Assembly (NCBI GenBank): GCA_030671745.1
Contig: DAOVHT010000001.1
Span: 1 to 36,336, forward strand
Reading direction: 5' to 3'
Length of the DNA stretch: 36,336 nt
Source: Candidatus Nanohaloarchaea archaeon
GTDB taxonomy: Archaea > EX4484-52 > GLR71
In this document: positions 14,002-23,431 of the stretch, in pieces
How the letters are laid out: every line of letters begins with the position of its first letter
Position numbering within the stretch: position 1 is the stretch's first letter
Notes under the pieces: model-generated
What the model saw: only the letters and a program-made list of their open reading frames with translations
Told to the model about the DNA's origin: nothing
Database searches by the model: none
Translations under genes and position numbers: made by a program

Positions 14002-14014
14002 TGATGTGATAAAT

Positions 14015-14284
14015 ATGAGAAAAGGAATGACAATCGCGATAACTCTTGTAATGGCAATGCTTGTGGCATTGGTTGTAGCCTTTGTCTTGATATCGATGTT
14101 CAGCACATCGATGGATAAGGGTAGTAAGGGGTTGACTGGTTCTTTAGACTCGACAACAGATGATGTAACTGGATTGGCTTGCAGTACCCATTGTGCGACC
14201 TGCTGTATAACGCAGGATGAAGATTATTGCGAAGATACGGATCATGGTGCGCCCTCAGATGCTTGCGAATGTCCAAATTGTTAA
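14015..14284 (+). CDS. Small prepilin-like protein with an 8-Cys C-terminal module (C-x3-C-x2-CC family)
   Basis: The ATG at 14015 gives MRKG|MTIAITLVMAMLVALVVAFVLISMF (the track start 14006 is GTG). The tail is CSTHCATCCITQDEDYCEDTDHGAPSDACECPNC. Confidence 0.75.
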   Translation: MRKGMTIAITLVMAMLVALVVAFVLISMFSTSMDKGSKGLTGSLDSTTDDVTGLACSTHCATCCITQDEDYCEDTDHGAPSDACECPNC

Positions 14285-14296
14285 GGTTTGATACTT

Positions 14297-14542
14297 ATGC
14301 GAAAAGCTATGACACAGTCAATATCTCTTATAACTGTCATAGTCGTAGGTCTTTTTGTGGTTGGAATTCTTATTATCATGGTTGGTGACAAGATGGGCAA
14401 GGCATCCGATGCGATTGGTCAGAATACAGATGTCACAGAAGACAGCCTTGAATGCAAGACTGAGTGTTCAGCCTGTTGTGCGACAGGGTATGGCGATACT
14501 GTCTGTGAGCGCCAGTTCATAGCCTGTGATTGTAGTTGTTGA
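14297..14542 (+). CDS. Small prepilin-like protein with an 8-Cys C-terminal module; tandem paralogue of 14015-14284
   Basis: The ATG at 14297 gives MRKA|MTQSISLITVIVVGLFVVGILIIMVG (the track start 14288 is TTG). An AAGGT SD-like sequence lies at 14283-14287. The tail is CKTECSACCATGYGDTVCERQFIACDCSC. Confidence 0.75.
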   Translation: MRKAMTQSISLITVIVVGLFVVGILIIMVGDKMGKASDAIGQNTDVTEDSLECKTECSACCATGYGDTVCERQFIACDCSC

Positions 14543-14543
14543 C

Positions 14544-14563
14544 AGATTATTCAGAAATAATCT
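14544..14563 (+). terminator. 8-bp stem / 4-nt loop hairpin immediately after the stop codon
   Basis: agattatt-caga-aataatct starts 2 nt after the TGA at 14540-14542. Confidence 0.35.
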
Positions 14564-14691
14564 CATTTCGCTTCGCGATATTCGAATCTTTCTTCACATT
14601 CGTTCTGAAATCATCAAGATCAAAGACAACAAATCACATCTTGCGCAGTTTTTCTTTGCCTTCAATATTTTTTGTAACAAGACCTAAATAT

Positions 14692-14931
14692 TCATTTCTT
14701 TTTTCCTAAAAAGTCTAAGAATTCATCTCTGTTCATATTAAGGTCCTGTTTGACAATTTTATTGAGTAATCCTCTATCCAGTTTTTCACCCGGGTGTACA
14801 GGTACTACTGTTGTTCGTCCATCTATATGTTCAAAGAATTGGTGGCTTCCATGTTGCCGTTTAAATTCAAAGCCCAATCTATTAAGTATTTTTATTAATT
14901 CTTTGGCAGTTATAAGTGGCCTTTTGACCAT
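14692..14931 (-). CDS. hicA: HicA-family mRNA interferase toxin
   Basis: KELIKILNRLGFEFKRQHGSHQFFEH..GRTTVVPVHPGEKLDRGLLNKIVKQ matches the HicA/YcfA pattern, including the GSH motif. It lies 2 nt downstream of hicB. Confidence 0.9.
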   Translation of the reverse strand: MVKRPLITAKELIKILNRLGFEFKRQHGSHQFFEHIDGRTTVVPVHPGEKLDRGLLNKIVKQDLNMNRDEFLDFLGKKK

Positions 14932-14933
14932 AT

Positions 14934-15158
14934 TTATGCCTCTACTTCAAGCTGTTCAAGACCTAGAAATTTTGTTTTGATTATATTGGCTTTATTTTCC
15001 ATCAAGTATAATTCTATTGCTTCTTTTGTTCTTTTGATTAGTTCATCGCGTGTTTTTGCCTGTGTGTGGCATCCTGGAAGTCCAACGACTTCTGATATCA
15101 GATATCCATCTTCCCCTTCTTCGATGATTATTGTATATTTTTCACCCATATAAATCAT
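14934..15158 (-). CDS. hicB: HicB-family antitoxin (UPF0150-type); start uncertain (ATG at 15158 or 15149; the track start 15194 is TTG)
   Basis: KYTIIIEEGEDGYLISEVVGLPGCHTQAKTRDELIKRTKEAIELYL is the typical HicB N-terminal fold signature. Confidence 0.85.
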   Translation of the reverse strand: MIYMGEKYTIIIEEGEDGYLISEVVGLPGCHTQAKTRDELIKRTKEAIELYLMENKANIIKTKFLGLEQLEVEA

Positions 15159-15222
15159 ATGGTGTTTCTTTTTTATAAATCTTCTCATCTCCAAAAATTA
15201 TATATAATCAACAATCTAAAAG

Positions 15223-15522
15223 ATGTATATAGTGTTTACGATGGCATTCTTAAAATCAAGAAAAAAGGGTGAATTGACAATTGAGACAGTCATAATCATA
15301 GTCTTATTTCTTGCAGTATTAGCTATTGTGATATTGGTTGTCAGTTCATTGACCGGTAAAGGTTCAGATTCAATGGGGACAACCATTGAGACCACAGGCG
15401 CTGGCGCACTCTGCGAGATCGAATGCATGAAGTGTTGTAGTAGTCAAGAAAAAGATTGTGAACCAATAGGTTCTTGCTGTGTTGATAAAGATGACCAAAA
15501 AATTGGTTGCCAATTGACTTAA
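15223..15522 (+). CDS. Small prepilin-like protein with an 8-Cys C-terminal module (C-x3-C-x2-CC family)
   Basis: The leader is MYIVFTMAFLKSRKKG|ELTIETVIIIVLFLAVLAIVILVV, with Glu at +1 and +5. The tail is CEIECMKCCSSQEKDCEPIGSCCVDKDDQKIGC. The TATA ttatatataa at 15198-15207 is about 20-25 nt upstream. Confidence 0.75.
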   Translation: MYIVFTMAFLKSRKKGELTIETVIIIVLFLAVLAIVILVVSSLTGKGSDSMGTTIETTGAGALCEIECMKCCSSQEKDCEPIGSCCVDKDDQKIGCQLT

Positions 15523-15535
15523 ATTCTCTTAAATC

Positions 15536-16804
15536 TCAAACTCTCAACAAAAATTTCCAAACAGGAACAATCTCAATATCATCAACAGTCCCTTCCTCTT
15601 CAAGTGTTACAACCATTGACTTTTCTACCTTATCTCCGAATTTGTCCAGATATTTTCTGATTTGTTTAACCGATTTCCTGCTCTGCTTAACTTCAATAAT
15701 CTCCTGTTTATCATCTTTCAAAAGCACAAAATCAATCTCGAAACCATTCCTATAAAAAAACTTAGAGTCTGTATATGTGGCCACCATATTTTCAAGCAAG
15801 TATGGTAAAAGACTATCAATATCCTGATTGAATGCGAATGCAATGTTGGGTGTATAAAGATATGCTTTTTTCATCTTTCTCATGCTGGCAATCGGACTGC
15901 CTCTATAATTGAATACTGGTTTTACTAAAAGTCCGAATTCAAGATATTCAAAATAATTGGCAATCGTTCTCTGATCCTTACCGAGGTCTTGCGCAATCTC
16001 TTTATAATTGACAATCATGCCTGGCTTTTTGCAGATGATATATACAAGTGTCTTGAGCAGTTCAACATCTTTTATCTCAAATTCTGCAGGCAAATCTTTG
16101 TATATGATTCGTTCTATGACATTGTTCAATATGTACCTTTTAGCGAATTCCTCATCAGTTTCATCATAAAGTTCGGGAAACATACCATATTTAAGATATC
16201 TATAAAACAATGGAATCAATTCTTTTTTCCATAGATCTGGATTGGTCTTTATCACTTTAAGATCTTTGCCGTTCAGCTCAATAAATTCTTCAAAAGATAA
16301 GGGTTTCATCTGAAAATCAATTATTCTGCCTGCAAGACTTTCAGTTGACTTTTTTCTCAGGCTGACTGATGCCGAACCAGATATGAATAATTTGACATTT
16401 GGATAAAGGTCATAGATAACTTTAATCTTGTTCTCCCAGTCATCAACTTTCTGTATCTCGTCCAAGAATATATAGACTTTACCCTCTATATCATCAAAAC
16501 TTTTTCCCAATATAGTTTTCTGATACGTTTCAAGAACATCTCTGAATTCAAACACTACTTCATCAAAAGAGAAATATAATACATTTTTTTGGTCAGCATC
16601 TGCAAGTATTTTCTGTATTAATTGGTACATTGTAGTTGTTTTTCCGACACGTCTTAATCCCCAGACTAACATTACTTGTTTTTTATCAATATATTTCTCA
16701 ATCTCAAAATATATGCGCCTTTTATACGGTTTAAGTAACGTCTCCTTTACTGTTCCCGTTTTCCACCACGGATTGAATTTTACTAAGTAATCAATAGGGG
16801 TCAT
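15536..16804 (-). CDS. AAA+ ATPase of the AAA_14/DUF4143 type
   Basis: It has the N-terminal FNPWW motif, a Walker A (GLRRVGKTT) and a Walker B-like IFLDEIQ. The C-terminal region has the DUF4143-like pattern. Length is 422 aa. Confidence 0.9.
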   Translation of the reverse strand: MTPIDYLVKFNPWWKTGTVKETLLKPYKRRIYFEIEKYIDKKQVMLVWGLRRVGKTTTMYQLIQKILADADQKNVLYFSFDEVVFEFRDVLETYQKTILGKSFDDIEGKVYIFLDEIQKVDDWENKIKVIYDLYPNVKLFISGSASVSLRKKSTESLAGRIIDFQMKPLSFEEFIELNGKDLKVIKTNPDLWKKELIPLFYRYLKYGMFPELYDETDEEFAKRYILNNVIERIIYKDLPAEFEIKDVELLKTLVYIICKKPGMIVNYKEIAQDLGKDQRTIANYFEYLEFGLLVKPVFNYRGSPIASMRKMKKAYLYTPNIAFAFNQDIDSLLPYLLENMVATYTDSKFFYRNGFEIDFVLLKDDKQEIIEVKQSRKSVKQIRKYLDKFGDKVEKSMVVTLEEEGTVDDIEIVPVWKFLLRV

Positions 16805-16826
16805 GTATATATTATTGCGTCCAAAC

Positions 16827-16834
16827 TATATAAA
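16827..16834 (-). promoter_or_regulatory. TATA box (TTTATATA on the minus strand) 23-30 nt upstream of the ATPase ATG
   Basis: The plus strand reads tatataaa at 16827-16834. The ATG is at 16804, so the spacing fits a leaderless archaeal promoter. Confidence 0.45.
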
Positions 16835-16836
16835 TT

Positions 16837-16891
16837 TAATGACATTGCAACGTCATTATTTCTGGGTTTTAATGACATCACAACGTCATAA
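16837..16891. promoter_or_regulatory. Two tandem copies of a 22-bp inverted repeat (operator-like) just upstream of the TATA box
   Basis: TAATGAC-ATTGCAAC-GTCATTA (16837-16858) and TAATGAC-ATCACAAC-GTCATAA (16870-16891). The arms are 7 bp, the spacers 8 nt, and the centre-to-centre distance is 33 bp. Confidence 0.5.
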
Positions 16892-16945
16892 CTTTTTGAA
16901 TTAAATGCTTAATCGTTATCGGGGCTCTTCCGCATCAACTCAATT

Positions 16946-17788
16946 TCAACTTTTTTTCTTCCTTTCCAACCTCTTAACTTTTTCAGGCACAGTCAAGTAA
17001 TTGTCGCTTGAACTTACTTTCTCATTTGTCTCAGATTCCAATTCCTTTCGCGCATTGCCTGCAATCGAACCTCCTTTTTTTGAAGCAATCTTGTTCTTAT
17101 CAAATTCTATCGCATCCGAAGATTTTGCAATGGCAGTGGTGGAAGCTTCACCAAGCATAGTAAAAATCAACTCTAAACCATCCATATGGTCTCTTAGATT
17201 CTGTTTTTCAAGTCCTTTAAACTCTTTGTATTCAGAAGGTGTCATATCAAAAGTTGCTTTACTAATCTCAGCCGTTAAAATTGAAAACTCTTTATTGGTT
17301 CTCACTCCCCGATTAGTCCATTCATCTGTTAATTCTTCTCTTACTGCAATACCTCTGATTCTTTTCTCAATCCACTCATCCGAATAACCTTTTTGTCGAT
17401 ATAGTTCTTTCATCCTTTTTTGAGCCAATTCTGGATCTTGAATTTCCTGTATTCTTTCATAACCTACTTTAGCGAGCCATTTTTTGAAAGGTTCGGCCTT
17501 CTTTGATGGTATTGATTGTATTATACGAAATAATAATTTTGTATTGGCACAATCAGTATTTCTTAATTTTCCATCTTCTGCGGAAAGTTTCAACTGTACG
17601 ATTTTATCGTACGATTCAAAACCTTCTATATTTAATTTTGATTTCAAATCAGACCAATATCTCTTAGGTATAGAACTCTCCGTTAACGCTTCTACTACAT
17701 CAACAACAGAAAAATACCATTGTTCTTCATGCCAGATTCTCCTGATATCCTTATTTTCAAACACGACCAATGCCTTATCTTTATCCAT
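16946..17788 (-). CDS. Bro-N domain protein (antirepressor/DinD-like), paralogue 1
   Basis: The N-terminus KALVVFENKDIRRIWHEEQWYFSVVDVVEAL is Bro-N-like. The conserved core is SKKAEPFKKWLAKVGYERIQEIQDPELAQKRMKELYRQKGYSDEWIEKRIRGIAVREELTDEW. The ATG at 17788 lies 5 nt after the upstream stop (the track start 17797 is GTG). Confidence 0.85.
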   Translation of the reverse strand: MDKDKALVVFENKDIRRIWHEEQWYFSVVDVVEALTESSIPKRYWSDLKSKLNIEGFESYDKIVQLKLSAEDGKLRNTDCANTKLLFRIIQSIPSKKAEPFKKWLAKVGYERIQEIQDPELAQKRMKELYRQKGYSDEWIEKRIRGIAVREELTDEWTNRGVRTNKEFSILTAEISKATFDMTPSEYKEFKGLEKQNLRDHMDGLELIFTMLGEASTTAIAKSSDAIEFDKNKIASKKGGSIAGNARKELESETNEKVSSSDNYLTVPEKVKRLERKKKS

Positions 17789-17793
17789 ATCAA

Positions 17794-18654
17794 TCACCTT
17801 AATTTCTTTCGTTTTTGACTTTCCGGTTCATCCAGATAATTGTCTTTTGAAATGATAGTCTTATCTAATCGTTTTTCAATATCTTTTCTTGTTGCACCTG
17901 CAACATCGCCACCATCATGAGCATCTTTTTTTATTTTAGCGAATTCTTGTGAATTTCGTTCTTTTGTAAATTTTGTAGTTGTGGCTTCACCTAACATAGT
18001 CAGTATAAGTTCAATGTCATTCATATGGTCTCTTAGATTCTGTTTTTCAAGTCCTTTAAACTCTTTGTATTCAGAAGGTGTCATATTAAAAGTGGCTTTG
18101 CTGATTTCAGCCGTAAGGATTGAAAATTCTTTATTAGTTTTTACACCACGATTGGCCCATTCATCAGTCAGTTCATCACGAACTGCGATTCCTCTAACTC
18201 TTTTTTCAATCCACTCATTCGAATAACCTTTCTGTCGATAAAGCTCTTTCATCCTTTTTTGTGCAAGTTCTGGGTCTTCAATCTCTTGTATTCTCTCATA
18301 ACCAACTTTAGCGAGCCATCTTTTGAAAGGTTCTGCTTTTTTAGATGGTATCGATTGAATTAAACGTAAAAGTCCCATAATATTCCAACACAATATCAAT
18401 TGCGGACCACCTTTAGTATCGAATTCAAATCCAAGGGGGGGTACAATTTGTCCCCCCCCTTTGAACACATCATTTAAAGAGTTATCTCTTTTTCTAAGTT
18501 TTTTTAAGTAGTCTGTAGGATTTACAGATCCTGTAAGTACCGTCACAACATCCTTTATTACAAACCACCATTGATTATCATGCCAAACTCTTCTGATATC
18601 CTTATTTTCAAACACAACCAATGCTTTATCTTTGTCTTTATTCATCTTAATCAT
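17794..18654 (-). CDS. Bro-N domain protein, paralogue 2 (start refined to ATG 18654)
   Basis: Alignment with paralogue 1 (MIKMNKDKDKALVVFENKDIRRVWHDNQWWFVIKDV) supports this start. The TATA CATATAAG (minus strand) at 18683-18690 lies about 30 nt upstream of 18654. The extra 30 N-terminal codons in the track ORF have no counterpart in paralogue 1. Confidence 0.85.
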   Translation of the reverse strand: MIKMNKDKDKALVVFENKDIRRVWHDNQWWFVIKDVVTVLTGSVNPTDYLKKLRKRDNSLNDVFKGGGQIVPPLGFEFDTKGGPQLILCWNIMGLLRLIQSIPSKKAEPFKRWLAKVGYERIQEIEDPELAQKRMKELYRQKGYSNEWIEKRVRGIAVRDELTDEWANRGVKTNKEFSILTAEISKATFNMTPSEYKEFKGLEKQNLRDHMNDIELILTMLGEATTTKFTKERNSQEFAKIKKDAHDGGDVAGATRKDIEKRLDKTIISKDNYLDEPESQKRKKLR

Positions 18655-19904: not shown

Positions 19905-20171
19905 TTAACAAATACAATTACAGTTTTTATAATATGGTAAATTACATTCTGTAACTGGGTCTTCTGCTCTACAACAACTCCAACACAACTGCTGGCACTC
20001 ACTCGCCCCACCAGCCCCCTCAATCTTCGTCCCGCCGATATCAACAAGATCAGCGCCAGAGCGCGTTATGAGTATCAGCATAATCGCCAGCGCAACAAGC
20101 AGCACGATAAGAATTACGATCGTGTTGATAGGCAATTCCATGCCCTTGCGCTTCTTAGAGAAAAGATTCAT
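19905..20171 (-). CDS. Small prepilin-like protein with an 8-Cys C-terminal module (C-x3-C-x2-CC family)
   Basis: The leader is MNLFSKKRKG|MELPINTIVILIVLLVALAIMLILI. The tail is CQQLCWSCCRAEDPVTECNLPYYKNCNCIC. A TATA (GATATAAACC, minus strand) at 20191-20200 is about 22-28 nt upstream of ATG 20171. Confidence 0.8.
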   Translation of the reverse strand: MNLFSKKRKGMELPINTIVILIVLLVALAIMLILITRSGADLVDIGGTKIEGAGGASECQQLCWSCCRAEDPVTECNLPYYKNCNCIC

Positions 20172-20220
20172 AACAATTATTATCGATTCAGGTTTATATC
20201 TGTTTTTGGTGTGATTACTT
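20131..20220 (-). repeat. Direct repeat copy 1: promoter plus the first ~13 codons of the pilin-like gene at 19905-20171
   Basis: 20161-20220 matches 20621-20680 at 57 of 60 positions by my count. 20131-20150 also matches 21845-21864 at 16 of 20 positions. Confidence 0.85.
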
Positions 20221-20471
20221 ATATACTCGTTTTCTGGTATCTATATTTATGACAACAACAAGAAGATTATTGTAATCAACTCTGTAAAGTATACGAAAAT
20301 CTCACACCCTGATTCTAAACACTTTCTCTTTTTGACCCATTATTCTTTTTGAATCATGTGGTATCGGGTCCTCTGCAAGTTTTTCAATGGATTCAAGAAT
20401 TCTCAGAGTCATATTCTTATCAAGTTTTTAAGTGATTTCTGGATTGGTTTATCTAAAAATATCTCAAACAT
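20215..20471 (-). pseudogene. relE: RelE/ParE-family toxin pseudogene (one frameshift plus one in-frame stop)
   Basis: The minus strand reads MFEIFLDKPIQKSLKNL, then needs a 1-nt insertion to continue as (D)KNMTLRILESIEKLAEDPIPHDSKRIMGQKEKVFRIRV*DFRILYRVDYNNLLVVVINIDTRKRVYK. The stop (TGA) replaces the Gly of the conserved RiRvGdyRiiY motif. It is below the track threshold because it is broken. Confidence 0.8.
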
Positions 20472-20473
20472 AT

Positions 20474-20587
20474 TCAAAGACCCAATTCTTTCTTAAACTC
20501 AGAAATAGATACAAGTTTACCTTCTTTTTCATTCTTGAAACTTTCATCTACAAGAACTTTATCTTTCTCGCTCAATATAGTATCCAT
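20474..20587 (-). CDS. Short (37 aa) antitoxin-like ORF immediately upstream of the relE remnant; possibly itself truncated
   Basis: MDTILSEKDKVLVDESFKNEKEGKLVSISEFKKELGL. Its stop TGA (20474-20476) lies 2 nt before the relE ATG (20471), which is the typical type II TA arrangement. Confidence 0.5.
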   Translation of the reverse strand: MDTILSEKDKVLVDESFKNEKEGKLVSISEFKKELGL

Positions 20588-20599
20588 GTCAATTATGGC

Positions 20600-20680
20600 A
20601 TACCCTTCTCGCTTCTTAGAAAAAGATTCATAACAATTATTATCAATTCAGGTTTATATCTGTTTTTGATATGATTACTT
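20600..20680 (-). repeat. Direct repeat copy 2: degenerate promoter plus frameshifted leader remnant (MNLFLRSEKGMP*)
   Basis: It is about 90% identical to 20140-20220 with two 1-nt indels. The TATA-containing part is retained. The remnant ORF stops after 12 codons. Confidence 0.85.
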
Positions 20681-20723
20681 CTTTTTTGATATAAAATTAT
20701 GCTTTGAGTTTGTATTGCTGAAA

Positions 20724-20755
20724 GGTGTCTACAAAAATATATAAATGTAGACACC
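20724..20755. promoter_or_regulatory. 32-bp palindromic element A (10-bp arms around an AT-rich TATA-like spacer), 6 nt upstream of the Fic ATG
   Basis: GGTGTCTACA-aaaatatataaa-TGTAGACACC. Confidence 0.6.
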
Positions 20756-20761
20756 CATTAT

Positions 20762-21670
20762 ATGTTTATGTTTATAGAAATAAGAAAACAAGGAAAAAAG
20801 AAAAAATATTATCTTGTGCATACATATAGATCTGCTGGAAAAGTCAAAAGAATATCCAAGTATCTTGGTTCTGATATAGATGATAAGGAGTTGCAGAAAC
20901 TAAAAAGTATTGCCGAAAAAAGAATTATTGAGGATTTAAAAGAAAGAAATATTTTAGAATTTGAATTAAATGATGACGAAATAAAGTATTATACTAACTA
21001 TGACTCTAAGATAAAGATAAAACATTTGCAAGGTATTGATTGGACTGATTTTAAAAAACGTTTTACATACGATACAAATGCAATAGAAGGTTCTACAGTT
21101 ACCTTGATTGATGCAGAAGAACTGTTGGGACAAAATAAAAAACCAATAAATAATGACGAGCTTGAAACAGTAAGTGTCTCTGAATCTGTAGATTTCATTA
21201 GAAACACTCAAAAAAAAATGTCAATTGAATTGATTAAAGAAATCCATAACATATGTTTTAATAAAACCAAGCCATTCGCTGGCAAGATAAGGGATGTACC
21301 AGTTGTTATAAAAGATTCTTATGGGAATATTATCCATGAAGGCGCTCCAGTTGATTTGATTGACAAATTACTGACAGAATTATGTGTTTGGTATGAAAAA
21401 CATATAGATATATATCCTCCATTACTTATTTCAGCATTAGTCCACAATCAATTTGAAAACATACATCCGTTTCAGGATGGTAATGGTCGGGTTGGAAGAT
21501 TGTTACTCAATTATGTGCTGATAAAACATAATTATCCACCTATAAACATATTATTGGAAGATCGTGATATCTATTATGAATCTCTAAAGCATTTTGATGA
21601 TAATGGTAATATTGTACCTACTTTAAAATTTTTGATAAAATTATATAAAAAACAATACAATATTTCATAA
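20762..21670 (+). CDS. Fic/DOC family protein (probable AMPylase or related NMP-transferase)
   Basis: The canonical Fic motif HPFQDGNGRVGR (HxFx[DE]GNGRxxR) is present. Length is 302 aa. A second ATG at 20768 is an alternative start. Confidence 0.9.
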   Translation: MFMFIEIRKQGKKKKYYLVHTYRSAGKVKRISKYLGSDIDDKELQKLKSIAEKRIIEDLKERNILEFELNDDEIKYYTNYDSKIKIKHLQGIDWTDFKKRFTYDTNAIEGSTVTLIDAEELLGQNKKPINNDELETVSVSESVDFIRNTQKKMSIELIKEIHNICFNKTKPFAGKIRDVPVVIKDSYGNIIHEGAPVDLIDKLLTELCVWYEKHIDIYPPLLISALVHNQFENIHPFQDGNGRVGRLLLNYVLIKHNYPPINILLEDRDIYYESLKHFDDNGNIVPTLKFLIKLYKKQYNIS

Positions 21671-21708
21671 ATATGTTAATTTTTAAACAGAAAAAATAAT
21701 TAGTGGTG

Positions 21709-21740
21709 GGTGTCTACAAAAATATATAACTGTAGACACC
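21709..21740. repeat. 32-bp palindromic element B, a near-identical second copy 38 nt downstream of the Fic stop
   Basis: GGTGTCTACA-aaaatatataac-TGTAGACACC differs from element A at 1 nt, in the spacer. It is followed only by a 4-codon ORF. Confidence 0.6.
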
Positions 21741-21844
21741 TTGTATGTATATTCATTAATTTCAAAGTGATTCTTATTGGTTTGGTTTAATTTTTAAAGC
21801 CTATTCTCTGATTTTTAAAACTTAAACAAAAGAACCTTAATCTC

Positions 21845-21890
21845 GGCAATTCCATACCCTTCTCATTTCTTGGGCTGAAAAAGACTGATA
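21845..21890 (-). repeat. Third, more degenerate remnant of the pilin-like leader (encodes ..EKGMELP.. on the minus strand)
   Basis: Compare ggcaattccatacccttctcatttcttgggctgaaaaagactgata with ggcaattccatgcccttgcgcttcttagagaaaagattcata at 20131-20172. There is no intact start and no hydrophobic segment downstream. Confidence 0.6.
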
Positions 21891-21952
21891 CATTTAGGTA
21901 TCATCTGGTACAATGTTGCAGACCCACACTGATCGCAAGAAATTACAAAAGA

Positions 21953-23431
21953 TCAATAACTCTTAGCGACATAGACAGTCTCTTTTGCAGGTTTTCCGCA
22001 CACCACGCATCTGGCGAACTTCTTGTCCTCTTTATCAACTTTCTTGCCGCGCACTTCAGCTCCGGTCTTGTCCTTGATAGTGTCTGCGCAAGCTTCGCCA
22101 TCAAGTTCCATGCTACAGAATCCGCACCGGACCATGTTACTGTCAGCCACCGCCTTCTCAAGTTCAGCCATGGATTCACAATCGATAAGCCTCTTATCAA
22201 AATTCTCAGCCTGTGCATCCTTCAACTGTTTAGTGAATGTTTTAGAGATATCAATAACTTTTCCGACAACCTCATCCGCCTTGACAAAATCTTTCTTGCC
22301 GTCATGCCTTGTGACTACCACTGCCTGACCTTTCTCGACATCTTTAGGTCCTACCTCAATCCGCACAGGAACACCTTTCATCTCCCACTCACTGAATTTC
22401 TCGCCCGGACTCTTATTATCGCGGACATCAACCTTGACTGAATATCCGGAACCAGAAAGTGATGTCTTGATCCGTTCACATTCGGAAAGTACCATATCGC
22501 GAGTCTTATCAAACAGTATGGGCACGATAACGACCTGCAACGGTGCAAGTTCAAACGGTAACACAAGCCCTGTATCATCGCCATGTATGGCGATCATAGC
22601 ACCGTATATCCGACTTATTGCCGGACCGTAACAGGTGATGTAACCATATTTTTTAGAACCGTCCTTGTCAACAAAACTGACATCGAAAGGTTCTGAGAAG
22701 TTGGTGCCTAAAAGATGTGTTGATGGCAACTGGATGACCTTGCCTGACGCGGTCAGTGCATCAGCGGCATGTGTCTTGACGGCTCCCGGGAACATATCCC
22801 ATTTAGGTCTCTCAAAGAATATTATGGGTATCGCAAACTCGTCGCCTATCATCTCATGCGTGATCTTCATGTCTTCCTTAATCTGTGCCTCAGCCTCAGC
22901 AAGTGTGGCAAAAACATTGTGCGCCTCAATCCAATGGAACTCACGACCCCTGAAGAACGGTCTTGTCATCTTGGTCTCATATCTCCACACAGACCCAGAC
23001 TGGTATCTCTTGAATGGCAGGTCATTGTAACTCTGTATCCAGAGACTGTACATCTTATACAGTGCAGTCTCGCTTGTCGGACGCAGTGCACGCCTTTCAT
23101 CAAACTTTTTCTTGCCGTCCCCTGCCTCAGTCACCCAGAAAACTTCAGGGGTGAATCCCTCGACATGTTTGGCTTCAAGATGAAAATTGCTTTCAGGTAT
23201 AAGTGATGGCATGACAACTGGTAGGTGCCCGTACGATTCTAACTTTTTCTCATATGTTGCAAACATCTTCTTGATGCTCATGACAGCCCACGGCATATAG
23301 CACACGAAACCTTTGATATTATACCTTAAATCCGCAAGTTCAGCCTTCTGCACAAGCTCTCCGTACCAACCGGAGAAATCCTCATCTTTGGATACGGTTA
23401 TACCTTTTTTCTTAATACCTTTACCAGCCAT
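21953..23431 (-). CDS. proS: Proline--tRNA ligase, archaeal/eukaryote-type class II with a C-terminal Cys-containing domain
   Basis: Signature segments are FSGWYGELVQKAELADLRY, RPTSETALY and FFRGREFHWIEAHN. The C-terminal domain carries CGFC...CVVCG and ends in ...AKSY, as in archaeal-type ProRS. Confidence 0.96.
   Translation of the reverse strand: MAGKGIKKKGITVSKDEDFSGWYGELVQKAELADLRYNIKGFVCYMPWAVMSIKKMFATYEKKLESYGHLPVVMPSLIPESNFHLEAKHVEGFTPEVFWVTEAGDGKKKFDERRALRPTSETALYKMYSLWIQSYNDLPFKRYQSGSVWRYETKMTRPFFRGREFHWIEAHNVFATLAEAEAQIKEDMKITHEMIGDEFAIPIIFFERPKWDMFPGAVKTHAADALTASGKVIQLPSTHLLGTNFSEPFDVSFVDKDGSKKYGYITCYGPAISRIYGAMIAIHGDDTGLVLPFELAPLQVVIVPILFDKTRDMVLSECERIKTSLSGSGYSVKVDVRDNKSPGEKFSEWEMKGVPVRIEVGPKDVEKGQAVVVTRHDGKKDFVKADEVVGKVIDISKTFTKQLKDAQAENFDKRLIDCESMAELEKAVADSNMVRCGFCSMELDGEACADTIKDKTGAEVRGKKVDKEDKKFARCVVCGKPAKETVYVAKSY

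What the first reader, a model, noticed from the sequence alone, without database searches (positions are those of the whole stretch)
20131..21890. One pilin promoter-plus-leader present three times, with the copies bracketing a RelBE remnant and a Fic cassette
The segment containing the TATA box and the first ~13 codons (MNLFSKKRKGMELP) of the pilin-like gene at 19905-20171 recurs twice.
- At 20600-20680 it is about 90% identical. It has two 1-nt indels, and the leader is frameshifted to MNLFLRSEKGMP*.
- At 21845-21890 it is more degenerate and still encodes ..EKGMELP...

The resulting order is: pilin gene, copy 1, relE*/relB, copy 2, palindrome-Fic-palindrome, copy 3, ProRS. This is the pattern expected if accessory cassettes were inserted serially at the 5' end of the pilin gene, each event duplicating the target. 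Recombination between pilin leaders could also have captured the cassettes.

One consequence is that the relB-like ORF (ATG 20587) now sits about 13 nt downstream of the remnant leader. It is probably driven by the duplicated pilin promoter.
Basis: seen in the sequence. Interest (0 to 1): 0.65.

Follow-up and report, generated by a model that had tools for sequence, protein, structure and literature searches.

The report
Toxin-antitoxin cassette hotspot at pilin start
In this salt-lake nano-archaeon, the start of a small pilin-like gene (promoter plus first codons) is a strain-variable landing site where toxin-antitoxin and Fic cassettes have accumulated, each bounded by a copy of that start, with no recombinase identified.

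Summary
The pilin promoter plus leader occurs three times:
- c1, 20131-20220, in front of the gene.
- c2, 20599-20680, 82 nt at about 90% identity, with two 1-nt indels.
- c3, 21845-21903, degenerate.

On alignment statistics alone c3 is only marginal (p about 0.01-0.035). Its position and comparison with relatives show it is a true copy.

The window comes from a Nanohaloarchaeon. One relative (L003) has the empty site, with proS followed directly by promoter, leader and pilin. Other relatives carry different cassettes between the same repeat copies: HEPN/MNT, HicBA, UPF0175/DUF3368 and DUF2283. The island has 28% GC against about 45% in the flanks.

Homology breakpoints cluster at the two edges of a roughly 30-nt core, TTTTCTCTAAGAAGCG(C/AG)AAGGGYATG. 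This core stays conserved even in relatives that have no ATG upstream of it.

My best reading is an att-like integration hotspot overlapping the pilin 5' end, later reshaped by cassette replacement and microhomology deletions. The recombinase is unknown. The site is not an integron: it has no IntI and no attC hairpins.

The palindromes flanking Fic are not insertion scars. They are a conserved companion of this Fic family in more than 70 unrelated metagenome loci, where they bracket its TATA box.

The parts
21953..23431 (-). proS (archaeal-type prolyl-tRNA synthetase), the conserved upstream flank of the hotspot
   Evidence: Pfam tRNA-synt_2b, HGTP_anticodon and ProRS-C_1. Relatives at 84-96% identity are Nanohaloarchaea MAGs.
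21845..21925 (-). c3: degenerate copy of the pilin promoter and leader. It sits at the original position directly after proS. It ends with the core plus 8 nt of pilin coding sequence (..AAGGGTATGGAATTGCC).
   Evidence: It is the positional orthologue of L003's only copy. It is 100% identical over 81 nt in L057. W and L057 diverge exactly after GAATTGCC, at window 21845.
21800..21844 (-). 'S' segment (GAGATTAAGGTTCTTTTGTTTAAGTTTTAAAAATCAGAGAATAGG). It follows the core in W c3, in L031 c3 and twice in L002.
   Evidence: It occurs once in the window.
21709..21740 (.). Downstream Fic palindrome GGTGTCTACA-N12-TGTAGACACC
   Evidence: The same arms lie downstream of Fic homologues in 34 metagenome loci.
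20768..21670 (+). Fic gene, antisense to the pilin. It is class-II-like, with the inhibitory motif TNAIEG and the active site HPFQDGNGRVGR. The conserved start is M at 20768.
   Evidence: Pfam Fic 1.5e-18. Alignment A2. Motifs. AF2 model with pLDDT 89.6 and FICD/CdFic fold matches. Nearest relatives are about 60% identical, in Woesearchaeota and Nanoarchaeota.
20724..20755 (.). Upstream Fic palindrome. Its loop AAAATATATAAA is TATA-like, and it ends 12 nt before the conserved Fic ATG. Probably a promoter with an operator.
   Evidence: (z = -5).
20599..20680 (-). c2: promoter (TATA-like AGATATAAAC), leader ATG at 20631 and core variant O2 (GCGAGAAGGG). A 1-nt loss in a T-run shifts the frame, giving MNLFLRSEKGMP*.
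20474..20587 (-). relB-like antitoxin remnant (37 aa), 5'-truncated relative to L002 and joined to c2. In L031 and L057 the same junction is an in-frame leader-RelB fusion.
   Evidence: It has no HMM family hit.
20215..20471 (-). relE/parE-family toxin pseudogene, with a frameshift and an in-frame TGA at 20302-20304. Its stop codon lies inside the 5' end of c1.
20131..20220 (-). c1: the working copy, with promoter, leader ATG at 20171 and core O1 (GCGCAAGGGCATG) running into the pilin gene
19905..20171 (-). Pilin-like gene of 88 aa. It has a class-III-signal-like N-terminus (MNLFSKKRKG/MELPINTIVILIV...) and a Cys-rich C-terminus.
   Evidence: Paralogues lie at 14006-14284, 14288-14542 and 15223-15522. 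Orthologues are P0002-P0009. It has no Pfam or NCBIfam hit.

Best explanation
**What it is.** The gap between proS and the pilin gene is an integration hotspot of this Nanohaloarchaeal lineage.

**The site.** The attachment site is a core (O) of roughly 30 nt, TTTTCTCTAAGAAGCG(C/AG)AAGGGYATG. It overlaps the first 10 codons of the pilin gene and lies just downstream of its TATA-like promoter (B).

**How cassettes enter (inferred).** Small low-GC cassettes carrying toxin-antitoxin or Fic genes recombine into O. The incoming DNA carries its own B-O segment. Integration therefore leaves one copy upstream of the cargo (attL-like, variant O2). It places the other copy in front of the pilin gene (attR-like, variant O1), so the pilin keeps a promoter and start codon.

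**What follows (partly shown).**
- Repeated events give an array in which B-O copies bracket each cargo.
- The copy nearest proS (c3) is the stranded original promoter, and it decays.
- Cargo between existing copies is later swapped.
- Cargo is also eroded by frameshifts and microhomology deletions. Examples are the relE pseudogene, the relB 5' truncation that fuses it to the leader, and the Fic 5' deletion in L031.

**Shown:** the repeats, the empty site, the strain-variable cargo, the clustered breakpoints and the foreign base composition.

**Inferred:** site-specific recombination, a recombinase acting in trans, and promoter activity of c1 and c2.
For: 1. **Empty site.** In L003, about 30 nt after the proS stop comes a single B-O-pilin unit.
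2. **Same frame, different cargo.**
   - W: c3-[Fic]-c2-[relB'-relE*]-c1.
   - L057: c3-[HEPN, MNT]-c2-[relB'-hicBA]-c1.
   - L031 and L184: c3-[Fic remnant]-c2-[relB'-hicBA]-c1.
   - L002: three core copies separating MNT/HEPN, HEPN/MNT and relB.
   - L059 and L060: other TA pairs upstream of the pilin core.
3. **Breakpoints cluster at the edges of O.**
   - Right edge: after ..GGGYATG (c2 to relB, L002_b to S) or 8 nt further on (c3 in W and L057).
   - Left edge: at the T-run (L002_b, L058-L061).
4. **Two core classes.** All cassette-side copies carry O2 (GCGAGAAGGG). All pilin-side copies carry O1 (GCGCAAGGG). This is the pattern expected for attL and attR classes.
5. **O looks constrained as DNA.** 15 consecutive positions are invariant in 8 orthologues, while downstream third-codon positions vary. 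O is kept in L058-L061 and L193, where no in-frame ATG precedes it.
6. **Foreign composition.** The island is 28% GC against 45-46% for pilin and proS. The nearest Fic relatives are other DPANN lineages.
7. **An independent case.** The hicAB insertion in L059 is flanked by a 55-58-nt direct repeat that is single-copy in L058.
Against: - No integrase or recombinase was found in the 36-kb window or in any related locus (Pfam).
- No free or viral element carrying a matching attP was found.
- Breakpoints are partly defined by what remains conserved, so their clustering is weaker evidence than it looks.
- c2 and the c2-relB junction are shared by three strains, so few truly independent insertion events were observed.
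- The polarity of L003 (ancestral empty site versus precise deletion) is inferred from its outgroup position only.
- Promoter function is untested.
Confidence: 0.5

Rival explanations
1. **Homologous recombination only.** An initial duplication arose by some rare accident. After that, the B-O copies of about 80 nt acted as portable homology. Recombination between direct repeats loops out a circle carrying one repeat and its cargo. Such circles, or linear DNA from other strains, re-enter by single or double crossover (Campbell-type). This would give gain, loss and swapping of cassettes with no dedicated recombinase.
For: - The repeats are long (55-89 nt) and their outer limits differ between events. 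B starts at AAGTAATCA in W but at AAAACAG in L057 c2.
- Cargo was replaced between pre-existing copies.
- The 5' flank of W c2 (AAAAAAGAAGTAATCA) matches the hicA 3' end that precedes c1 in L031 and L057. Unequal crossing-over between copies would produce this.
- A cluster of 7 SNPs in Fic between two otherwise near-identical contigs shows recombination tracts at this locus.
- No recombinase gene was found.
Against: - It does not explain how the first duplication arose.
- It does not explain why O keeps sharp edges on both sides.
- It does not explain why O is conserved where it is apparently not translated.
- It does not explain the systematic O1/O2 split.
- An unrelated hicAB insertion shows the same flanking-repeat signature at another site.
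Confidence: 0.3
2. **Decayed tandem pilin paralogues.** The ancestor had two or three tandem pilin genes, each with its own promoter and leader. Their coding bodies were later overwritten by TA and Fic genes, leaving only the 5' ends.
For: Several Cys-rich pilin paralogues lie in tandem elsewhere in the window (14006-14542, 15223-15522), and a HicAB pair sits between two of them.
Against: - c2 and c3 keep at most 8 nt of pilin coding sequence past the leader.
- The paralogues in the window share no DNA similarity with this leader.
- L003 has a single gene directly after proS.
- Different cargos end at the same edges in different strains.
Confidence: 0.08
3. **c3 is chance similarity.** Only one duplication (c1 and c2) exists, and c3 is AT-rich noise.
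For: The local alignment score of c3 is reached by 35 of 1000 shuffles (against c1) and 9 of 1000 (against c2). The orthologous c3 core in L031 is much more degenerate.
Against: - c3 lies at the position of L003's native promoter-leader.
- It shares an exact 16/17-nt block with c1.
- It is the exact breakpoint between W and L057.
- Core copies recur at cassette borders in L002.
Confidence: 0.05

Closest known systems
Genomic islands and integrative elements inserted in tandem at one att site (classically the 3' end of a tRNA gene; archaeal pNOB8- and SSV-type integrases; tandem casposons)
   Same: - Direct repeats of the target bracket each inserted segment.
- Relatives have an empty site.
- The cargo has foreign base composition.
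- The element-borne copy of the target restores the interrupted gene.
- Serial insertions give three or more repeat copies.
   Different: - The target is the promoter plus 5' end of a protein-coding gene, not a tRNA gene.
- The units are tiny (0.4-1.3 kb) and carry no integrase.
- No recombinase was found nearby.
Integrons and CALINs, including the archaeal ones of Ghaly et al. 2022 (PMC9668308)
   Same: - An array of small cassettes sits at one chromosomal platform.
- TA modules are typical cargo. They make up 10.5% of annotated archaeal cassette proteins in that paper.
- A platform promoter can serve a captured gene, as in the in-frame c2-relB fusion.
   Different: - There is no IntI.
- The inter-cassette repeats are direct copies of a promoter and leader, and they do not fold into attC-like hairpins.
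- Cassette orientation is mixed.
- The word 'Nanohaloarchaea' does not occur in that paper's text.
pdif modules and IMEX elements (modules bounded by Xer recombination sites). Recalled from general knowledge, not tested here.
   Same: Small modules, often TA pairs, are bounded by copies of a short host recombination site and are moved by a host recombinase acting in trans.
   Different: O shows no clear 11-6-11 dyad of the dif type. Its copies are all in direct orientation. No Xer involvement was tested.
Defence or TA 'hotspots' between conserved core genes in bacterial genomes
   Same: The flanks are fixed (proS; pilin and the 346-aa gene). The content is strain-variable and drawn from TA and defence-type genes: HEPN/MNT, HicAB, RelBE, Fic and PIN-like.
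   Different: Here the cassette borders carry recognisable copies of one specific 30-80-nt sequence, which is not a general feature of such hotspots.

Membership tests
Integron / CALIN | An integron integrase (IntI, a tyrosine recombinase with the extra domain) adjacent to the array | tested here: not met
   No PF00589 or other recombinase hit in any ORF of at least 90 aa in the 36-kb window, and none in the gene calls of the related loci. CALINs lack IntI, so this feature alone does not exclude one.
Integron / CALIN | attC sites: imperfect inverted repeats that fold into a single-strand hairpin between cassettes | tested here: not met
   Single-strand DNA folds of c1, c2, c3+S and the L002 copies are no better than shuffles (z from +0.06 to +1.4). 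The only strong hairpins are the Fic palindromes, and these travel with Fic in non-array contexts.
Site-specific integrative element (att duplication) | Direct repeats of the target flanking the insert, plus an empty site in relatives | tested here: met
   The c1/c2/c3 copies. The empty site in L003.
Site-specific integrative element (att duplication) | A cognate integrase and an excised or free form carrying attP | tested here: not met
   No integrase in the window. Scans of viral contigs for O2, B, S and the L059 site gave only chance hits. Nothing relevant in the plasmid and phage collections. Whole genomes and raw reads could not be searched.
Transposon / IS insertion | A short target-site duplication (2-15 bp), terminal inverted repeats and a transposase | tested here: not met
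   The duplicated segment is 55-90 nt. There are no terminal inverted repeats at the cassette ends and no transposase domain.
Type II TA, RelE/ParE toxin with antitoxin | A toxin with the RelE/ParE fold signature and an intact ORF | tested here: not met
The gene nevertheless has a frameshift and an in-frame TGA. It is a pseudogene of this family.
Type II TA, RelE/ParE toxin with antitoxin | An upstream antitoxin of a recognised family | tested here: inconclusive
   The 37-aa ORF, its 54-aa fusion form and the longer L002 form hit no Pfam or NCBIfam model. It is called RelB-like from position only.
Fic/Fido AMP-transferase, class II (intramolecular inhibitory helix) | The active-site motif HxFx(D/E)GNGRxxR and an N-terminal (S/T)xxxE(G/N) motif | tested here: met
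   HPFQDGNGRVGR at residue 233 and TNAIEG at residue 103. Pfam Fic. Sequence and fold matches to FICD and CdFic.
Archaeal class III signal peptide / type IV pilin-like protein | A short basic N-region ending in K/R-G, followed by a hydrophobic stretch of about 20 residues | tested here: met
   MNLFSKKRKG|MELPINTIVILIVLLVALAIMLILI, read directly from the sequence. The same pattern occurs in at least 6 other ORFs of the window.
Archaeal class III signal peptide / type IV pilin-like protein | A match to a curated pilin or class-III-signal model, and cleavage by a prepilin peptidase | tested here: not met
   No Pfam or NCBIfam hit. Cleavage cannot be tested here. 'Pilin-like' is therefore a description, not a family assignment.

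The most novel reading that the evidence does not exclude
B-O (with the adjoining S segment) may be the attachment site of an undescribed cassette-capture platform in Nanohaloarchaea. It would work like an integron in serially capturing and exchanging TA and defence cassettes, and in lending a leaderless promoter and start codon to captured genes. It would differ in using a direct-repeat site inside a gene's 5' end, and a recombinase acting in trans that is unrelated to IntI/attC chemistry. The hicAB insertion in L059, flanked by a 55-58-nt repeat, would be a second site of the same system.
Probability: 0.2. Interest if true: 0.75.

Novelty: new variant of a known kind. Interest (0 to 1): 0.5.

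Why it matters
DPANN archaea have tiny genomes and depend on hosts. How they gain and lose accessory and defence genes is poorly known, and few mobile-element mechanisms have been described for them.

This locus gives a concrete, alignable example. It has an empty site, at least six different fillings, and a short core sequence at the borders. That makes the question of which enzyme moves small cassettes in Nanohaloarchaea directly testable.

It also shows how an insertion into a gene's 5' end can be tolerated, because the promoter and leader are duplicated. It shows how a stranded promoter copy can be reused, as in the in-frame leader-RelB fusion.

Separately, the conserved pairing of this Fic family with a TATA-bracketing palindrome is a ready-made candidate for an autoregulated archaeal promoter.

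Tried and rejected
- **Integron or attC reading.** Rejected. The repeats form no hairpin and there is no IntI.
- **UGA read as glycine (code 25) in relE.** The stop replaces a conserved Gly in RIRV*DFRILY. I dropped the idea because the gene also has a frameshift.
- **Viral or plasmid donor.** Scans for O2, B, S, the palindrome and the L059 repeat in IMG/VR gave only chance matches. BLAST of the island against plasmids and phages gave nothing relevant.
- **Pilin search in JGI metagenome contigs.** No relatives found.
- **tRNA or known RNA as the integration target.** None found in the window or the related loci. The conserved segment upstream of the pilin in L058-L061, L193 and L195 shows no supported RNA structure.
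- **Long flanking repeats around the other W-specific insertions** (Bro-N pair, AAA_14 ATPase, HicAB at 14.6-15.2 kb). None found, so the repeat signature is specific to the proS-pilin site and to L059.
- **DNA-binding fold for the Fic N-terminal domain.** The model is confident (three beta strands plus a helix), but there is no significant PDB match. The best named hit is an integrase arm-type domain at E = 0.8.
- **Literature.** I found no paper on a TA hotspot in Nanohaloarchaea or on a Fic-associated palindrome.
Full report
**1. The observation**

On the minus strand the window encodes an 88-aa protein at 19905-20171. It begins MNLFSKKRKG/MELPINTIVILIV... and has a Cys-rich C-terminus.

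- **c1 and c2.** The segment 20139-20220 holds the TATA-like AGATATAAAC, the ATG at 20171 and the first 11 codons. It recurs at 20599-20680 over 82 nt at about 90% identity, with two 1-nt indels. The c2 leader is frameshifted to MNLFLRSEKGMP*.
- **c3.** A third, degenerate copy lies at 21845-21903 and still reads ..EKGMELP...
- **Statistics for c3.** They are modest. The block GGCAATTCCATRCCCTT is exact at 20131 and 21845. The full local alignment is reached by 35 of 1000 (against c1) and 9 of 1000 (against c2) dinucleotide shuffles of the AT-rich island. The case for c3 rests mainly on comparative evidence (section 3).
- **What lies between the copies.**
  - A relE/parE-family pseudogene, with ATG 20471, a frameshift, and TGA at 20302-20304. 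It matches Pfam ParE_toxin at 3.9e-8 after repair.
  - A 37-aa relB-like ORF at 20474-20587.
  - A Fic gene on the opposite strand, flanked by two 32-nt palindromes.
- **Composition.** GC falls to 28% across 20221-21844, against 45-46% for pilin and proS.

**2. Organism and context**

The ProRS relatives at 84-96% identity are Nanohaloarchaea (DPANN) MAGs. A 99.9% identical contig (L001) comes from a ZHAN22-2 metagenome.

The window is a cluster of proteins with class-III-signal-like N-termini and large surface proteins. It includes three Cys-rich paralogues of the pilin-like gene. No Pfam or NCBIfam model matches the pilin-like protein, so 'pilin-like' is descriptive.

No recombinase domain was found in any ORF of at least 90 aa in the window. 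There are no tRNA genes and no Rfam matches at the locus.

**3. Related loci**

| Locus | Arrangement between proS and the pilin gene |
|---|---|
| L003 (ProRS 88%) | Empty site: proS stop, about 30 nt, then one promoter-leader-pilin unit |
| W (this window) | c3-[S, palindrome, Fic, palindrome]-c2-[relB'-relE*]-c1-pilin |
| L057 | c3 (100% identical to W over 81 nt)-[HEPN, MNT reversed]-c2 fused in frame to truncated relB (54 aa)-hicB-hicA-c1-pilin |
| L031, L184, L186 | c3-S-palindrome-3' remnant of Fic-c2 fusion (52 aa)-hicB-hicA-c1-pilin |
| L002 | Three core copies separating MNT/HEPN, HEPN/MNT (reversed) and a full-length relB |
| L058-L060, L193 (more distant orthologues) | DUF2283, HicAB or UPF0175/DUF3368 upstream of the pilin core |

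In L031, L184 and L186 the Fic 5' part, its upstream palindrome and the TATA of c2 were removed by a deletion at a GATAAT microhomology.

W and L057 are identical up to the last base of c3 (..GGTATGGAATTGCC). They diverge completely there and rejoin at AAAACAGATATAAAC of c2.

The triple arrangement recurs in several independent assemblies, so it is not an assembly artefact.

**4. Anatomy of the repeat**

The unit is B (AAAAACAGATATAAAC...TTGTT), then O (ATGAATCTTTTCTCTAAGAAGCGCAAGGGCATG), with up to 8 nt of pilin coding sequence.

- **Two core classes.** All pilin-proximal copies carry O1 (GCGCAAGGG, coding KKRKG). All cassette-side copies carry O2 (GCGAGAAGGG, 1 nt longer).
- **Clustered breakpoints.** Homology ends at the T-run on the left of O (L002_b, L058-L061). 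On the right it ends at or 8 nt after ..GGGYATG.
- **Conservation of O.** Fifteen consecutive positions of O are invariant in eight orthologues, while third-codon positions downstream vary freely. O is retained in L058-L061 and L193, where no in-frame ATG precedes it. This suggests constraint at the DNA level.
- **The S segment.** A further 45-nt segment S follows O in W c3, in L031 c3 and twice in L002. The inter-cassette unit may therefore be B-O-S.
- **No hairpins.** None of these copies folds better than shuffled sequence.

**5. Mechanism**

I favour (0.5) an att-like integration hotspot:
- Cassettes recombine into O.
- The incoming DNA supplies a B-O copy that keeps the pilin gene expressed.
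- The original promoter (c3) is stranded and decays.
- Cargo between copies is later replaced and eroded.

The O1/O2 split, the sharp edges of O, the empty site and an independent example all fit this. The independent example is the hicAB insertion in L059, flanked by a 55-58-nt repeat that is single-copy in L058.

Evidence against:
- No recombinase or free element was found.
- c2 and its junction with relB are shared by three strains, so few independent events were seen.

The main rival (0.3) is recombinase-free homologous recombination between the 55-89-nt repeats. Three observations support it:
- The outer limits of B vary between copies.
- The hicA-like tail (AAAAAAGAAGTAATCA) lies upstream of W c2.
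- A recombination tract is visible in Fic between W and L001.

Decayed tandem pilin paralogues (0.08) and chance similarity of c3 (0.05) are unlikely.

**6. Expression consequences (inferred)**

The TATA-like box of B begins 27 nt upstream of the leader ATG, which fits a leaderless transcript. c2 keeps this box.

- In L057 the leader is translationally fused to the truncated relB. In L031 and L184 the fusion ORF is also intact, but the c2 TATA has been deleted.
- In W, a T-run of 5 rather than 6 breaks the frame. This leaves a 12-codon upstream ORF whose stop lies 5 nt before the relB ATG at 20587.
- With relE dead, the relB remnant is probably an orphan.

**7. The palindromes belong to Fic**

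- **How common they are.** In 74 of 120 it lies next to a Fic homologue of 40-65% identity.
- **Where they lie.** In 35 loci it lies just upstream of the start, with TTTATATA or TTTAAATA at the 3' end of the loop. In 34 loci it lies just downstream of the stop.
- **Other supporting loci.** The palindrome-Fic-palindrome arrangement also occurs in L062, L148 and L163. L063 has a variant changed in both arms, GGTGACTAC/GTAGTCACC.
- **Interpretation.** In W the upstream palindrome brackets a TATA-like loop and ends 12 nt before the conserved Met at 20768. The palindromes are therefore part of the Fic gene's own promoter/operator-like architecture. They arrived with it from a low-GC DPANN lineage.
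- **The protein.** It is a class-II-type Fic, with TNAIEG and HPFQDGNGRVGR and FICD/CdFic fold matches. It has an extra N-terminal domain of three beta strands and a helix, with no significant structural match. That this domain binds the palindrome is a hypothesis only.

**8. Comparison and novelty**

The closest known kinds are tandem genomic islands at one att site and integron or CALIN arrays.

- **Against att-site islands.** It shares direct target repeats, an empty site and restoration of the target gene. It differs in that the target is a promoter plus 5' coding end, and in that the units are tiny and carry no integrase.
- **Against integrons.** It shares small cassettes and TA cargo (PMC9668308). 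It fails the IntI and attC tests.

I found no description of such a hotspot in Nanohaloarchaea. I rate it a new variant of a known kind, with interest 0.5.

Noticed in passing
window 20724-20755 and 21709-21740; loci L062-L183: The 10-bp-arm palindrome GGTGTCTACA...TGTAGACACC is a conserved companion of this Fic family in more than 70 unrelated metagenome contigs. It lies upstream with a TATA box in its loop, downstream of the stop, or in both places. L063 has a compensatory variant changed in both arms. It looks like an autoregulated promoter/operator, and I found no description of it in the literature.
   Followed up: partly
window 20768-20950 (Fic residues 1-62): The Fic protein has an extra N-terminal domain of three beta strands and a helix, predicted confidently. 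It has no significant PDB fold match. The best named hit is an integrase arm-type DNA-binding domain at E = 0.8. It is a candidate binder of the palindrome.
   Followed up: partly
L059 526-584 and 1151-1208; L058 380-437: A reversed hicAB pair in L059 is flanked by a 55-58-nt direct repeat that is single-copy in L058. L060 and L193 have other TA cargo ending at the same segment. The repeat shares the 8-mer GAAGCGAG with core O2.
   Followed up: partly
L058-L061, L193 (just upstream of the pilin ATGGAATTGCC): The core DNA TTTTCTCTAAGAAGCGCAAGGGC is kept nearly unchanged, but there is no in-frame ATG upstream. These orthologues would start at the second Met (MELPINTIV...) and lack the basic leader.
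   Followed up: partly
window 14562-15194, 15623-16834, 16919-18620: Relative to L184 and L031, the window has three further insertions next to the pilin paralogues. They are a HicAB pair, an AAA_14/DUF4143 ATPase and two Bro-N genes. None has long flanking direct repeats.
   Followed up: partly
window 20302-20304: The in-frame stop in relE is a TGA that replaces the conserved Gly of RIRVGD(F/Y)R. UGA read as Gly was considered and dropped, because the gene also has a frameshift near 20427-20451.
   Followed up: yes
window 21538-21619 versus L001: 7 of the 12 differences between the window and the 99.9% identical contig L001 cluster within 82 nt of the Fic 3' end. The L001 variant matches neither W nor L031, so it is probably a short recombination tract from a third allele.
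   Followed up: partly
window 20681-20696: The 5' flank of c2 (AAAAAAGAAGTAATCA) matches the hicA 3' end (KKK-stop) that precedes c1 in L031 and L057. This hints that the c2 copy once followed a hicA gene.
   Followed up: no
window about 16839-16889: Two copies of an 18-nt palindrome, ATGACGTTGNNATGTCAT, lie upstream of the AAA_14/DUF4143 ATPase gene. They are also present in L184, which lacks that gene.
   Followed up: no
window 14006-14284, 14288-14542, 15223-15522, 19905-20171: This is a family of small proteins (84-99 aa) with class-III-signal-like N-termini and Cys-rich C-termini (CxxxCxxCC motifs). None has a Pfam or NCBIfam match.
   Followed up: no
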